Assembly: GCA_024673055.1 (NCBI GenBank)
Contig: GCA_024673055.1_4537.1
Strand: one strand, 5' to 3'
DNA length: 64,000 bases
From: a phage
Of this stretch, positions 50,809-52,664 are shown piece by piece. Every line of letters begins with the position of its first letter. Position 1 is the stretch's first letter. The notes beneath the pieces are model-generated. The model was not told the DNA's origin. It did no database searches and saw only the letters and a program-made list of their open reading frames with translations. The position numbers and the translations under genes were made by a program.

Positions 50809-50882
50809 TGGAGCGTTCTACGAGGATCGAACTCGTGCCGCCGACTTGGAAGGACGGAATGCTACCGCTACACCAAGAACGC
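50809..50882 (-). tRNA. tRNA-Gly (anticodon TCC), CCA encoded
   Basis: Acceptor GCGTTCT/AGAACGC, anticodon loop CTTCCAA (stem has one U-U mismatch), T-arm ACGAG-TTCGATC-CTCGT. Confidence 0.6.
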
Positions 50883-50893
50883 CCTACATCTTT

Positions 50894-50923
50894 ACTATAC
50901 TACATTTTACTATTGGTTGTCAA
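50894..50923 (-). promoter_or_regulatory. Sigma70-like promoter (minus strand) for downstream tRNAs
   Basis: On the minus strand AACTATTGACAA, 18 bp, TATAGT, just upstream of tRNA-Gly. Confidence 0.5.
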
Positions 50924-51383
50924 TAGTTTTATTGAGTGGGACAGTGACGAGTATCCCGTTGGGTGACTAGCCCTACGTTCGGTAAGCTAACTTAAAATAA
51001 TACAAAACCAAAGTCAAATATTATTCTTCGTTGCTGTCGATGGGAGAGCCGCTTCTTCTTTTGCCCCATCCAACCCTACTCCGGTCAAGTTTCAGGTAAC
51101 TCTTTTTGTGATCAACACAATACTAAGAACACTGTCTTTCGAGCAGACCTTGTGCACAGGATACGACGATCAATCACAGTGCTCTTAATGTTGTGTTGTG
51201 AATACTAACCTCGGAACTCATTACCGCGTTTTGGCTCGACCTTACTACAGGTTAGTGAATGTCTTTCGTCCGCTTACATTCAATAAGTTTGCTTTCTTCA
51301 CAACGATAAGAACACTTAACAGAAGATAGGTCTGATTGCCTCGGATGATTTCTCAGTAGCCTAAATGTTCTTACCTGTTATGT

Positions 51384-51458
51384 TGGTGCTCCCACTCTGA
51401 ATCGAACAGAGATCCACGGATTACAAAACCGTTGTAATAGCCATTATACTATAGGAGC
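51384..51458 (-). tRNA. tRNA-Thr (anticodon TGT), CCA encoded
   Basis: Acceptor GCTCCTA/TGGGAGC, anticodon loop TTTGTAA (stem with one U-U mismatch), T-arm CTCTG-TTCGATT-CAGAG. Confidence 0.55.
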
Positions 51459-51464
51459 AAAGCT

Positions 51465-51541
51465 GGGACTCGGCAGGATTCGATACCTGCAATTTCAGAA
51501 GCCTCTTGGCGACTGGGGGTTTACCTTAACTCTACAAGTCC
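51465..51541 (-). tRNA. tRNA-like element, non-canonical (8-nt T-loop, no foldable anticodon arm)
   Basis: Acceptor GGACTTG/CGAGTCC and T-arm-like GCAGG-TATCGAAT-CCTGC, but no 5/7/5 anticodon arm could be found by hand. Confidence 0.3.
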
Positions 51542-51548
51542 ATAATTC

Positions 51549-51640: not shown

Positions 51641-51728
51641 TGGTGGTGAGTGATGGAGTCGAACCACCCGAATCGCAATGATAACAGATTTACAGTCTGC
51701 CCCGCTACCCCTACGGAATTAACTCACC
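51641..51728 (-). tRNA. tRNA-Tyr (anticodon GTA), type II, CCA encoded
   Basis: Acceptor GGTGAGT/ACTCACC, anticodon arm GCAGA-CTGTAAA-TCTGT, long variable arm, T-arm GGTGG-TTCGACT-CCATC. Confidence 0.65.
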
Positions 51729-51948: not shown

Positions 51949-52039
51949 TGGCGGAAGGAGGGAGAGTCGAACTCCCAAGGCTCTTTCAAGCTCGGCGGTT
52001 TTCAAGACCGTTTTCGTCGCCACGTCGATTTGCCCTTCC
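51949..52039 (-). tRNA. tRNA-Ser (anticodon TGA), type II, CCA encoded
   Basis: Acceptor GGAAGGG/TCCTTCC, anticodon loop CTTGAAA, long variable arm, T-arm GGGAG-TTCGACT-CTCCC. Confidence 0.55.
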
Positions 52040-52047
52040 ATACTTAT

Positions 52048-52077
52048 AATCTAACATAAAATAATGTTAGTTGTCAA
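52048..52077 (-). promoter_or_regulatory. Sigma70-like promoter (minus strand) inside the tRNA cluster
   Basis: On the minus strand AACTATTGACAA, 18 bp, TAGATT, upstream of tRNA-Ser(TGA). Confidence 0.45.
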
Positions 52078-52273
52078 TAGTTTTTTAAAACATTTTACCA
52101 TGAATGGTGACTCCACCAACCCCCGTTCTCAACGAACGGTGCTCTTCGAGCATTTATGTCTTCTAATATAACCGTGGCCTTTGTTTATAATGTCTGACAT
52201 ACTTGCCTCATTCTCTGCCACCATGATCAGTAGTGGGTTCAAATCACTTGAGCTAATTCATGTTAAAATGTTC

Positions 52274-52425: not shown

Positions 52426-52630
52426 ATAAATGTGGTAACAGAGACGCTGACGATTGTAGAGAACCGCTACATTCTCTAAGACCAAGCCCAACTTTCAGCG
52501 TAAAAGTTCTTGAGCCGAGACTATTCCTTTTCCTCTTTGGTAGCTAACCTCTGAAGAAGTAGTCTCTAACACTACCGCAGTGCAAGCCCCTCTTAACAAA
52601 AGTCAACGACCCTGTTACCACACTTGATGA

Positions 52631-52664
52631 ACGTATCCTAACATATGAAGGATACGTTTGTCAA
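52631..52664 (-). promoter_or_regulatory. Sigma70-like promoter (minus strand) for the tRNA cluster, overlapped by a 9-bp perfect inverted repeat
   Basis: On the minus strand AACTATTGACAA, 18 bp, TAGGAT; palindrome ACGTATCCT-N9-AGGATACGT (52631-52657) covers the -10 and spacer. Confidence 0.5.

What the first reader, a model, noticed from the sequence alone, without database searches (positions are those of the whole stretch)
50926..51383. About 460 bp ORF-free, structure-rich spacer inside the tRNA operon (candidate non-coding RNA)
Between tRNA-Thr and the promoter upstream of tRNA-Gly there is no ORF of 60 aa or more on either strand and no canonical tRNA. The minus-strand sequence has several long-range complementary segments (AAGAACA...TGTTCTT, GATGGG...CCCATC, GGGA...TCCC). 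It is co-transcribed with tRNAs, so it may be a structured RNA rather than simple spacer; a similar 190-bp ORF-free stretch with a 6-bp hairpin lies at 52081-52273.
Basis: seen in the sequence. Interest (0 to 1): 0.45.

Follow-up and report, generated by a model that had tools for sequence, protein, structure and literature searches.

The report
Conserved RNA hairpins between phage tRNAs
The gene-free stretch between two tRNA genes of this E. coli phage is a chain of conserved RNA modules, and two of them are large hairpins of an undescribed family that unrelated phages also carry next to their tRNA genes or inside unannotated tmRNA-like genes.

Summary
Window 50883-51383 (minus strand) lies between tRNA-Thr and tRNA-Gly of a Phapecoctavirus. 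It has no ORF over 43 aa, no tRNA or tmRNA, and no Rfam match even at E<=10.

It is not one RNA. It is a mosaic:
- A1: an 84-nt hairpin starting 1 nt after the tRNA-Thr CCA.
- A2: a linker. A1 and A2 form a 185-nt block present in only about 5 GenBank relatives.
- B1: an 86-nt hairpin, 100% identical in relatives whose other spacers are 71-81% identical.
- Hairpin C, a variable stretch (candidate indel site), conserved block D, and a sigma-70-like promoter for tRNA-Gly.

A1 and B1 have strong covariation support (8 of 23 and 10 of 29 pairs with compensatory changes). They share a roughly 20-bp closing stem, which I call the "frame", around different conserved cores. Both recur in unrelated phage groups and SSU5-like phage-plasmids. 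B1 was on the tRNA strand in all 16 IMG/VR loci that also held tRNAs. In nine other phages the hairpins sit just downstream of tag-coding segments of tmRNA-like genes.

B1's apical loop carries a self-complementary hexamer in 33 of 34 copies (GUGCAC, GGGCCC or GCGCGC), which suggests kissing-loop dimerisation.

Most likely these are stable structured RNAs cut out of the tRNA precursor. Their function is unknown. The two other large spacers of the cluster also fold into covarying RNAs.

The parts
51384..51458 (-). tRNA-Thr (UGU), the upstream neighbour. Its CCA end sits 1 nt before hairpin A1.
   Evidence: ARAGORN and Rfam; sequence read.
51199..51383 (-). Module A (A1 plus linker A2): a 185-nt block that is present or absent among Phapecoctaviruses.
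   Evidence: Present in DE16, SF1-1, phiWec188, phiWec190 and PsgM04F at 96-99.5% and in metagenome contig L145. Most other Phapecoctavirus records match only from query position 186 onward. No match in 5,426 E. coli genomes.
51299..51382 (-). Hairpin A1: a 20-bp closing stem (the frame) around an invariant core. The core contains a UGA-GAAA-UCA tetraloop hairpin (51355-51346) and the 27-nt block AUCCGAGGCAAUCAGACCUAUCUUCUG (51346-51320).
   Evidence: z = -3.3. On 11 sequences, 8 of 23 pairs have compensatory changes, 88% of cells are paired against 33-48% with slid partners, and 0 of 500 shuffles reach the covariation score. Found at 87-96% identity in Taipeivirus, Kuttervirus, Gamaleyavirus, Jedunavirus, Bas81 and a Xanthomonas jumbo phage.
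51199..51298 (-). Linker A2, containing a small hairpin GAAUGU...ACAUUC (51281-51257) and a widely shared ~40-nt motif (51254-51216).
   Evidence: 84.7% identical over 137 nt to Klebsiella phage Pylas, in an ORF-free tract beside its tRNA cluster. One compensatory pair in the small hairpin. The 40-nt motif also occurs in T4-like and rV5-like phages. Folding energy is no better than shuffles.
51113..51198 (-). Hairpin B1: a frame-type closing stem, internal loops, and an apical 7-nt loop GUGCAC-A (stem and loop at 51160-51148).
   Evidence: z = -4.3. 10 of 29 pairs have compensatory changes in 6 sequences. 100% identical in phiWec179 and phiWec190, where other spacers are 71-81% identical. Present in about 84 SSU5-like phage-plasmids, several siphovirus groups and about 25 IMG/VR contigs. 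The loop hexamer is self-complementary in 33 of 34 copies.
51071..51112 (-). A-rich tail after B1, leading into hairpin C; conserved.
   Evidence: 97.6% identical in phiWec179 and phiWec190. A homologous stretch follows tRNA-Thr directly in Citrobacter phage Tr1.
51039..51070 (-). Hairpin C (GAUGGG...CCCAUC) with a conserved 3' loop part AGCGGNUCU.
   Evidence: The stem changes compensatorily: GAUGGG/CCCAUC here, GAUGGA/UCCAUC in phiWec179, GGUUGG/CCAACC in Tr1. The 25-aa ORF starting inside it is broken in phiWec190 (ATG GGG TAA).
50983..51038 (-). Variable segment, a candidate indel site.
   Evidence: Replaced by unrelated sequence in phiWec179 and phiWec190 (32-46% identity). ZCKP1's match to this part of the spacer is split into two pieces spanning 1029 nt, with an antitoxin-like gene annotated under it. 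I did not map where that insertion sits, so this localisation is not shown.
50936..50982 (-). Block D, a conserved 47 nt containing the GGGA...UCCC hairpin.
   Evidence: 95.7% identical in the diverged relatives. 89.8% identical in Tr1, where it lies about 20 nt upstream of the ribosome-binding site of a 108-codon ORF. No informative covariation; folding no better than shuffles.
50883..50935 (-). Promoter for tRNA-Gly and the downstream tRNAs: A-rich upstream part, -35 TTGACA (50923-50918), -10 TATAGT (50899-50894).
   Evidence: 11 of 12 consensus matches. The motif ACTATTGACAA recurs at 52664 and 52077. 94.3% conserved. Annotated as a repeat_region in phage tuntematon.
50809..50882 (-). tRNA-Gly (UCC), the downstream neighbour.

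Best explanation
The spacer is a chain of small structured-RNA modules on the tRNA strand.

Two modules, A1 and B1, belong to a family I call framed hairpins. Each has a roughly 20-bp closing stem of conserved sequence (consensus CACAAC-A-GG-U-AAGAGCA ... UGCUCUU-U-CC-GUUGUG) around one of several alternative conserved cores.

What is shown:
- The hairpins are real and under selection.
- They lie on the tRNA strand.
- They move between phages as modules.
- Units are gained and lost next to tRNA-Thr.

What is inferred:
- They are transcribed from the promoter at 52077 as part of the tRNA precursor.
- The cut that matures the tRNA-Thr 3' end also frees the 5' end of the hairpin. Cuts in the A/U-rich tails then release stable RNAs of about 85-95 nt, protected by their long closing stems.
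- B1 pairs with a second B1 through its self-complementary loop.
- The invariant cores act in trans on a partner conserved across gamma-proteobacteria. Because the modules are linked only to tRNA and tmRNA-like genes, that partner most likely belongs to tRNA or translation metabolism, or is a tRNA-directed defence.

The rest of the spacer is a third small hairpin (C), a variable stretch, a conserved block (D) that precedes a gene in a distant relative, and the next promoter.
For: - No known family: ARAGORN and Rfam find nothing in the spacer even at E<=10.
- Covariation: A1 has 8 of 23 pairs compensatory and 0 of 500 shuffles reach its score. B1 has 10 of 29 pairs compensatory. Hairpin C's stem differs compensatorily in phiWec179 and Tr1.
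- Strand: G-U cells outnumber A-C cells 38 to 9 on the tRNA-sense strand, and 24 to 2 in B1. B1 is co-oriented with tRNAs in all 16 IMG/VR loci that contain both. In Bas81 and SCNJ1-C the hairpins run with the tRNAs and against the flanking genes.
- Selection: B1 is 100% identical, block D 95.7% and the tRNAs 91-97% in relatives whose other spacers are 71-81% identical.
- Junction with tRNAs: the hairpin starts 1-3 nt after a tRNA CCA in the window, in XbC2 and in SSU5-like contigs L048, L084 and L136.
- Shared frame, different cores: A1, B1, a Pylas core with a T-arm, and further cores in PJ16 and Bas77.
- B1 loop: three different self-complementary hexamers, 33 of 34 copies.
- Transcription signals: a promoter-like site upstream at 52077 and no terminator-like site before the spacer.
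Against: - No expression or end-mapping data exist, so transcription, processing and stability are all inferred.
- Module A is absent from most Phapecoctaviruses, so A1 is dispensable for growth in the laboratory.
- A processing or stability role in cis would also explain the position and the conserved closing stem.
- Several covarying sequences are related to each other, so the pair counts overstate the number of independent events.
- No partner or target was found. Module A (A1 plus A2) has no match in E. coli genomes at E<=0.01. B1's only hits in E. coli assemblies that I examined were on SSU5-like plasmids.
- One B1 copy has a non-palindromic loop (GUGCCC, L025) and one A1 copy breaks the tetraloop stem (L143).
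Confidence: 0.6

Rival explanations
1. The hairpins act only in cis. They would be processing and stability signals for the tRNA precursor (RNase III, E or P sites, or 3' protective stems) that set the tRNA ends, with no function once released.
For: They start at the tRNA CCA end. In phages that lack module A, the outermost B1 pairs use the terminal CA of tRNA-Thr. The ~20-bp closing stem keeps its sequence across different cores. A/U-rich tails follow each hairpin.
Against: A processing stem does not need a ~45-nt invariant core, a covarying GNRA hairpin or a loop that stays self-complementary. A1 is about 87% identical between enterobacterial and Xanthomonas phages. Most tRNAs in the same cluster do without such hairpins. 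The hairpins also occur in tandem, away from any tRNA, in tmRNA-like genes.
Confidence: 0.22
2. They are leftover domains of a phage tmRNA-like gene that decayed in this lineage. In other phages, A1- or B1-type hairpins sit where tmRNA pseudoknots lie, downstream of the tag.
For: In nine other phages, A1 or B1 lies about 80 nt after a tag-coding segment such as ANDDVVLMAA or ANEDRFLMAA.
Against: The window has no homologue of the tag region or of the 3' region of those genes (nhmmer). B1 is invariant while neighbouring sequence is replaced. The hairpins also occur with no tag-coding segment in the DNA examined, just 3' of a tRNA-Tyr (XbC2) or a tRNA-Thr (Phapecoctavirus and SSU5-like elements).
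Confidence: 0.07
3. They are DNA-level mobile or recombination elements: inverted-repeat cassettes (MITE-like or PeSL-like) whose ends promote shuffling of tRNA-island modules, with no RNA function.
For: Units are present or absent both in Phapecoctavirus and in SSU5-like elements. Near-identical modules occur in unrelated phages. The similar closing-stem sequences could serve as recombination points. The promoter is repeated three times.
Against: Strict co-orientation with tRNAs and the G-U over A-C excess (38 to 9) point to selection on one transcribed strand. A pattern scan with up to 3 mismatches re-found only A1 in 64 kb and missed B1, so it was not exhaustive. No transposase or clear target duplication was seen. 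Recombination explains spread but not the conserved cores.
Confidence: 0.07
4. It encodes a small protein, for example the 25-aa ORF at 51069-50992 with a GGAG upstream.
For: There is an ATG with a plausible ribosome-binding site.
Against: The ORF has a stop at codon 3 in phiWec190 and a different reading in phiWec179. No ORF in the spacer exceeds 43 aa.
Confidence: 0.02
5. It is plain spacer with chance hairpins.
For: The linker, the post-B1/C segment and the variable/D segment fold no better than shuffles.
Against: Covariation, tRNA-level conservation and recurrence in unrelated phages.
Confidence: 0.02

Closest known systems
Small stable RNAs of phage tRNA clusters (T4 species 1 and 2 RNAs, rnaC and rnaD)
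   Same: Non-tRNA, non-coding RNAs encoded on the tRNA strand inside a phage tRNA cluster, of unknown function. T4 annotates them next to tRNA-Arg.
   Different: No sequence similarity. T4 rnaC ends in a T-arm-like hairpin, and A1 and B1 have none. The window's other spacer at 52081-52273 resembles the rnaC design more closely.
tmRNA domains downstream of the tag (pseudoknots, or hairpins that replace them)
   Same: In nine other phages A1- or B1-type hairpins occupy this position, after a tag ORF and a covarying pseudoknot.
   Different: The window has no tag, no tRNA-like domain and no homologue of the flanking tmRNA-like parts. The hairpins also occur with no tag-coding segment in the DNA examined.
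tRNA-linked hairpin transcripts of murine gammaherpesvirus 68 (a tRNA-like RNA followed directly by pre-miRNA hairpins, separated by tRNA 3'-end processing). From my own knowledge.
   Same: The architecture: a tRNA followed within 1-3 nt by one or two long hairpins in the same transcript.
   Different: A eukaryotic virus with Pol III and RNase Z processing and miRNA output. No evidence of small-RNA products or targets here.
Kissing-loop dimerisation hairpins (HIV-1 dimerisation initiation site with GCGCGC or GUGCAC loops; phi29 packaging RNA). From my own knowledge, plus PMC4201828 for pRNA self-association.
   Same: B1's apical loop carries a self-complementary hexamer, and two of its three variants (GUGCAC and GCGCGC) are the same hexamers as in HIV-1.
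   Different: A 7-nt loop instead of 9 nt, unrelated sequence and context, and dimerisation is untested.
Large phage-associated RNAs near tRNAs (ROOL, GOLLD) that form RNA-only assemblies (PMC12286853)
   Same: Phage-borne structured RNAs of unknown function, with intermolecular loop contacts.
   Different: Those are about 500-800 nt RNAs (from my own knowledge). No Rfam match to them here. A1 and B1 are under 90 nt.
Phage phi80 M3 RNA and E. coli 4.5S RNA precursors (hairpin RNAs cut by RNase P). From my own knowledge.
   Same: Small, stable, mostly double-stranded hairpin RNAs whose 5' end is made by a tRNA-processing enzyme. Some A1 copies are followed by ACCA.
   Different: The window copies are followed by AAGA and AUCA, not ACCA. 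Cleavage is untested.

Membership tests
tRNA | Cloverleaf with a T-loop, scored by ARAGORN and Rfam RF00005 | tested here: not met
   No call between 50883 and 51383.
tmRNA (standard or permuted) | Tag reading frame with a resume codon | tested here: not met
   No tmRNA from ARAGORN. A profile of nine phage tag regions finds nothing in the 64-kb window.
tmRNA (standard or permuted) | tRNA-like domain with an acceptor stem, T-arm and CCA | tested here: not met
   No T-arm or acceptor in the spacer. A profile of the 3' part of the phage tmRNA-like genes finds only one insignificant hit (E = 2) outside the spacer.
Group I/II introns, self-cleaving ribozymes, riboswitches, ROOL, GOLLD, Drum and all other Rfam 15 families | A match to the family's covariance model | tested here: not met
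   On the 511 nt alone, the only hits at E<=10 are two chance lncRNA fragments at about 11 bits.
Intrinsic terminator | GC-rich hairpin followed by a U-tract on the transcribed strand | tested here: not met
   None in the spacer on the minus strand. The cluster's terminator is at 50202-50184.
Framed hairpins (family proposed here) | A roughly 20-bp closing stem related to CACAACAGGUAAGAGCA / UGCUCUUUCCGUUGUG, kept by compensatory changes | tested here: met
   A1 and B1. The same stem surrounds other cores in Pylas, PJ16, Bas77 and Bas81.
Framed hairpins (family proposed here) | Same strand as, and adjacent to, tRNA or tmRNA-like genes | tested here: met
   16 of 16 IMG/VR loci for B1. The A1 contexts examined also agree.
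Framed hairpins (family proposed here) | Exists as a discrete stable RNA | not testable with these tools
   Needs RNA-seq or Northern blots.
Kissing-loop dimerisation hairpin | Self-complementary sequence exposed in an apical loop and kept self-complementary when it changes | tested here: met
   GUGCAC (16 copies), GGGCCC (13), GCGCGC (4) and one GUGCCC.
Kissing-loop dimerisation hairpin | The RNA forms dimers through the loop | not testable with these tools
   Needs native gels or a structure.
T4 rnaC / rnaD | Sequence or structural homology | tested here: not met
   blastn finds only 8-18-nt chance matches. The folds differ.
Small protein gene | An ORF conserved in relatives | tested here: not met
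   The 25-aa ORF is broken in phiWec190.
MITE-like or transposon-derived repeat | Many genomic copies, target-site duplication, both orientations | tested here: inconclusive
   Two hairpins are known in the window. The pattern scan re-found only A1 and missed B1, so further diverged copies are not excluded. Orientation was fixed wherever tRNAs were present. The junction repeat (CA-ACA) is too short to judge.

The most novel reading that the evidence does not exclude
Framed hairpins would be a new class of exchangeable RNA cassettes that travel on phage tRNA and tmRNA-like transcripts. A common closing stem would direct their excision. The interchangeable cores (A-type with a GNRA hairpin, B-type with a dimerising loop, a tRNA-like type in Pylas) would each bind or mimic a different host component of tRNA metabolism or ribosome rescue. 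For example, they could act as decoys for tRNA-cleaving defence nucleases or for the trans-translation machinery.
Probability: 0.15. Interest if true: 0.8.

Novelty: new variant of a known kind. Interest (0 to 1): 0.6.

Why it matters
Phage tRNA clusters have been known since the 1970s to encode extra small stable RNAs, and their function has never been explained.

This locus provides a sequence-defined, covariation-supported family that is shared by many enterobacterial phages and phage-plasmids. It has natural presence/absence variants and a simple testable property: a loop that stays self-complementary.

It also connects these RNAs to unannotated tmRNA-like genes in common E. coli and Klebsiella phages, including therapy-type phages. 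Standard annotation pipelines leave all of these regions blank.

If the RNAs act on tRNA-directed defences or on ribosome rescue, they would add an RNA layer to the current view of phage tRNA islands as counter-defence loci.

Tried and rejected
- Rfam at gathering thresholds and at E<=10, on 64 kb, 2.5 kb and 0.5 kb: nothing in the spacer.
- tmRNA idea for the window: the motif AUAAAU-GCU at 52157 looked like a resume site with an 18-codon frame (ARRAPF...). It is not conserved in phiWec179 or Seunavirus phages, and profiles of real phage tag regions do not match the window. Rejected.
- Small ORF at 51069-50992: broken in phiWec190.
- The minimum-energy pairings UAGG/CCUA and CUGA/UCAG inside A1: the XbC2-type sequences instead support an extended closing stem and a UGA-GAAA-UCA hairpin.
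- Similarity to T4 rnaC and rnaD: none.
- A loose B1 pattern in IMG/VR returned mostly chance hits and had to be filtered with a profile.
- Exact-core scans show the family is rare outside cultured enterobacterial phages: 3 IMG/VR contigs for the A1 core, 5 metagenome contigs for the A1 core, and 1 of 185,579 species genomes for the B1 core.
- I tried to find the tRNA-like domain of the phage tmRNA-like genes by eye and could not resolve it. ARAGORN calls none of them.
- Literature searches found no description of these hairpins or of tmRNA-like genes in these phages.

Full report
**Identity of the window and check of the observation**

The window is a Phapecoctavirus, a ~150-kb E. coli myovirus of the Stephanstirmvirinae. 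The spacer is 99.6% identical to phage vB_EcoM_DE16.

The tRNA cluster is on the minus strand. ARAGORN and Rfam place tRNA-Thr at 51384-51458 and tRNA-Gly at 50809-50882, with nothing called between them. No ORF overlapping the spacer exceeds 43 aa on either strand.

A TTGACA-18-TATAGT site lies at 50923-50894. The cluster's only convincing terminator is at 50202-50184. No terminator-like site lies in the spacer on the minus strand.

Rfam gives no meaningful hit in the spacer even at E<=10, whether the search covers 2.5 kb or the 0.5 kb alone. None of the relatives I inspected carries a credible annotation here.

They are the stems of three local hairpins.

**Anatomy**

Alignment with three relatives, searches of GenBank phages and per-segment identities divide the spacer into modules. 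Listed 5' to 3' on the minus strand:

| Module | Coordinates | Description |
|---|---|---|
| A1 | 51382-51299 | Long hairpin starting 1 nt after the tRNA-Thr CCA |
| A2 | 51298-51199 | Linker |
| B1 | 51198-51113 | Second long hairpin |
| post-B1 | 51112-51071 | A-rich conserved tail |
| C | 51070-51039 | Small hairpin |
| variable | 51038-50983 | Replaced in relatives |
| D | 50982-50936 | Conserved block |
| promoter | 50935-50883 | For tRNA-Gly and downstream tRNAs |

A1 and A2 together form a 185-nt block. It is found in only five GenBank Phapecoctaviruses (DE16, SF1-1, phiWec188, phiWec190, PsgM04F) and one metagenome contig. In most other Phapecoctavirus records, B1 follows tRNA-Thr directly.

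Identities against the two diverged relatives phiWec179 and phiWec190:

| Segment | Identity |
|---|---|
| B1 | 100% |
| post-B1 tail | 97.6% |
| Block D | 95.7% |
| Promoter | 94.3% |
| tRNA blocks that align throughout | 91-97% |
| Other spacers of the cluster | 71-81% |
| Variable segment | 32-46% |

B1 and D are therefore conserved as strongly as tRNA genes.

**The two large hairpins are real RNA structures**

A1 and B1 fold much better than shuffled sequence (z = -3.3 and -4.3). The linker, the post-B1/C segment and the variable/D segment do not.

For A1, I used 11 sequences from seven phage groups.
- 8 of 23 pairs show changes on both sides.
- 88% of cells are paired, against 33-48% when partners are slid.
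- No shuffle out of 500 reaches the observed covariation score.
- The divergent Xanthomonas-type copies corrected the energy-based fold. The closing stem extends two pairs further, and a three-pair hairpin capped by a GAAA tetraloop covaries (UGA-GAAA-UCA to UGC-GAAA-GCA).

For B1, six sequences give 10 of 29 pairs with compensatory changes.

Hairpin C also changes compensatorily: GAUGGG/CCCAUC here, GAUGGA/UCCAUC in phiWec179, and GGUUGG/CCAACC in Citrobacter phage Tr1.

On the tRNA-sense strand, G-U pairs outnumber A-C mismatches 38 to 9, and 24 to 2 in B1. This is the pattern expected if that strand is the functional RNA.

**A shared closing stem with interchangeable cores**

A1 and B1 have different cores, but their closing stems are similar in sequence. 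In other phages that stem is nearly the same for both (CACAAC-A-GG-U-AAGAGCA ... UGCUCUU-U-CC-GUUGUG).

The same stem surrounds further cores:
- In Klebsiella phage Pylas, a three-way junction that includes a perfect T-arm (GCGG-UUCGAUU-CCGC).
- In PJ16 and Bas77, two other cores.

Units occur in tandem, for example B1 followed by A1 in Bas81.

SSU5-like phage-plasmids exist with and without an extra unit between tRNA-Thr and B1. This mirrors the module-A polymorphism in Phapecoctavirus. Unit gain and loss by recombination between the similar stems is a reasonable inference.

**Distribution and context**

A1 occurs at 87-96% identity in these groups:
- Taipeivirus and Kuttervirus (Ackermannviridae)
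- Gamaleyavirus (Schitoviridae)
- Jedunavirus
- the siphovirus Bas81
- a 368-kb Xanthomonas phage and related IMG/VR and metagenome contigs

B1 occurs in these groups:
- all Phapecoctaviruses examined
- about 84 SSU5-like phage-plasmids of E. coli, Shigella and Salmonella
- several siphovirus groups (SCNJ1-C, Bas77, Bas79, PJ16, Sashavirus)
- about 25 IMG/VR contigs
- one Citrobacter genome contig

Where tRNAs are present, B1 is on their strand in all 16 IMG/VR loci. In Bas81 and SCNJ1-C, the tRNAs and the hairpins run against the flanking structural genes. In the window, in XbC2 and in three SSU5-like contigs, the hairpin begins 1-3 nt after a tRNA CCA.

Exact-core scans show the family is rare outside this set of phages. 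Module A has no match in 5,426 E. coli genomes.

**Link to tmRNA-like genes**

In Pylas, nithesis, PD205, UPM 2146, fGh-Ecl02, SCNJ1-C, Bas77, Bas81 and PJ16, the hairpins lie about 80 nt downstream of a segment with sub-threshold Rfam matches to permuted and beta-proteobacterial tmRNA (27-34 bits).

These segments encode canonical-looking tags after an AUAAAU-GCA resume site: ANDDVVLMAA, ANDDVILMAA, ANEDRFLMAA, ANEERFLMAA, ANDNTFLAVA and ANNETYLMVA. By eye, a pseudoknot after the tag covaries (CCGA/UCGG against CCAG/CUGG).

ARAGORN calls none of them, they are unannotated, and I could not resolve their tRNA-like domain.

The window itself has no homologue of the tag region or of the 3' region of these genes. 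The tag-like motif in its other spacer is not conserved. The window hairpins are therefore not part of a tmRNA, although they belong to the same module pool.

**The B1 loop**

The apical 7-nt loop is a hexamer plus A. Among 34 B1 copies the hexamer is:
- GUGCAC in 16 copies, on two different stems
- GGGCCC in 13 copies
- GCGCGC in 4 copies
- GUGCCC in 1 copy

Three different self-complementary hexamers, where one random hexamer in 64 is self-complementary, point to selection for loop-loop pairing between two copies. Selection for a fixed protein site would not keep changing the sequence this way. GUGCAC and GCGCGC are also the two dimerisation loops of HIV-1 (from my own knowledge). Dimerisation itself is untested.

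**Most likely mechanism**

Shown: conserved, covarying hairpins on the tRNA strand, exchanged as modules.

Inferred:
- Transcription starts at the promoter at 52077 and runs through tRNA-Thr into the spacer, since no terminator intervenes.
- The tRNA 3'-end cut frees the hairpin's 5' end, and cuts in the A/U-rich tails release stable RNAs of 85-95 nt.
- B1 dimerises.
- The invariant cores act in trans on a partner conserved across gamma-proteobacteria.

The exclusive company of tRNA and tmRNA-like genes suggests that partner belongs to tRNA or translation metabolism, or is a tRNA-directed defence.

My confidence is about 0.85 that A1 and B1 are functional structured RNAs. It is about 0.3 for a trans-acting role over a cis processing role, and low for any specific partner.

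**Rivals**

- A purely cis processing or stability role explains the position and the stem. It does not explain the invariant cores, the covarying tetraloop hairpin, the self-complementary loop, or the tandem units away from tRNAs.
- Decay of a tmRNA-like gene is contradicted by B1's invariance and by hairpins found where no tag segment was seen.
- A DNA-level repeat explains how the modules spread. It does not explain the strand bias or the G-U excess.
- A small ORF is broken in a relative.

**The remaining modules**

In the distant relative Citrobacter phage Tr1, tRNA-Thr is followed directly by the homologue of the post-B1 tail and hairpin C. Block D then lies about 20 nt upstream of the ribosome-binding site of a 108-codon ORF.

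In ZCKP1, the match to this part of the spacer is split into two pieces spanning 1029 nt, with an antitoxin-like gene annotated under it. I did not map where the insertion sits. The variable segment may therefore be a gene-insertion site, and D may be a leader or processing element. Both remain open.

**Comparison with known systems and novelty**

The kind of thing is known: extra stable RNAs in phage tRNA clusters, such as T4 rnaC and rnaD. There is no homology to those and no Rfam family matches. Literature searches found no description of these hairpins.

In architecture the locus resembles the tRNA-plus-hairpin transcripts of murine gammaherpesvirus 68. In its loop it resembles retroviral and phi29 pRNA kissing hairpins. 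I file it as a new variant of a known kind.

**Verdict**

The finding is real and more interesting than a plain spacer. The function is unknown, and all statements about RNA processing and action remain inferences.

Noticed in passing
window 52081-52273 (minus strand): The second ORF-free stretch named in the finding is a conserved ~185-nt structured RNA. It is about 70% identical over nearly its full length in Seunavirus phages (PVP-SE1, EspYZU12; partly in 4MG), on the tRNA strand inside the tRNA cluster in PVP-SE1 and 4MG. The consensus fold has 62 pairs, 16 of them with compensatory changes. It reads as a tRNA-like cloverleaf (acceptor CAUGAAU/AUUCAUG, D stem GCUC/GAGC) with a ~108-nt insertion in the D-loop. 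No Rfam match.
   Followed up: partly
window 52426-52640 (minus strand): The leader between the first promoter (52664) and tRNA-Met folds into a closed multibranch RNA of about 200 nt with a ~22-bp closing stem (GUGGUAACAG.../...CUGUUACCAC). Between two sequence types that are 80% identical, 8 of 66 pairs change compensatorily. Found only in Phapecoctavirus.
   Followed up: partly
L018:1333-1709, L008:1330-1700, L007:1960-2150, L006:1330-1680, also L009, L014, L016, L017, L019, L020: Unannotated tmRNA-like genes in Klebsiella, E. coli and Enterobacter phages of several families. They have SsrA-like tags (ANDDVVLMAA, ANEDRFLMAA, ANDNTFLAVA, ANNETYLMVA and others), and by eye a pseudoknot after the tag covaries. 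Their Rfam scores are below threshold, and ARAGORN calls no tmRNA. Their tRNA-like domain could not be identified, and some have a promoter directly upstream of the D-loop-like segment.
   Followed up: partly
window 51216-51254 (minus strand); L004:1501-1542; L005:1501-1538; L007:1560-1600: A ~40-nt motif, CAACCUGUARUAAGGUCGAGCCMAAGYGCGGUAAUGRGU, is shared at 86-92% with T4-like phages (just downstream of denV), rV5-like phage FV3 (upstream of its tRNA cluster) and Pylas. Its meaning is unknown.
   Followed up: partly
L007:1617-1708 (Klebsiella phage Pylas): A framed hairpin whose core is a tRNA-like three-way junction with a perfect T-arm but no D-arm and no encoded CCA. Neither ARAGORN nor Rfam calls it.
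   Followed up: partly
window 51953-52039 and 51644-51728 (minus strand): Two tRNA-like genes that ARAGORN missed. One is a sub-threshold tRNA-Sec-like match (37 bits); at the equivalent position phiWec190 has a second annotated tRNA-Ser. The other is a weak tRNA hit (39 bits) that is 88-90% identical to tRNA-Tyr of FV3 and SSU5-like plasmids.
   Followed up: partly
window 51459-51548 (minus strand): A 90-nt gap between tRNA-Asn and tRNA-Thr with no call from any tool. Not examined further.
   Followed up: no
window 52664, 52077 and 50923 (minus strand): Three copies of the promoter-like repeat A-rich-ACTATTGACAA-18 nt-(-10) divide the tRNA cluster into three units. This resembles the repeated early-promoter cassettes described in hyperplastic regions of T4-type phages.
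   Followed up: partly
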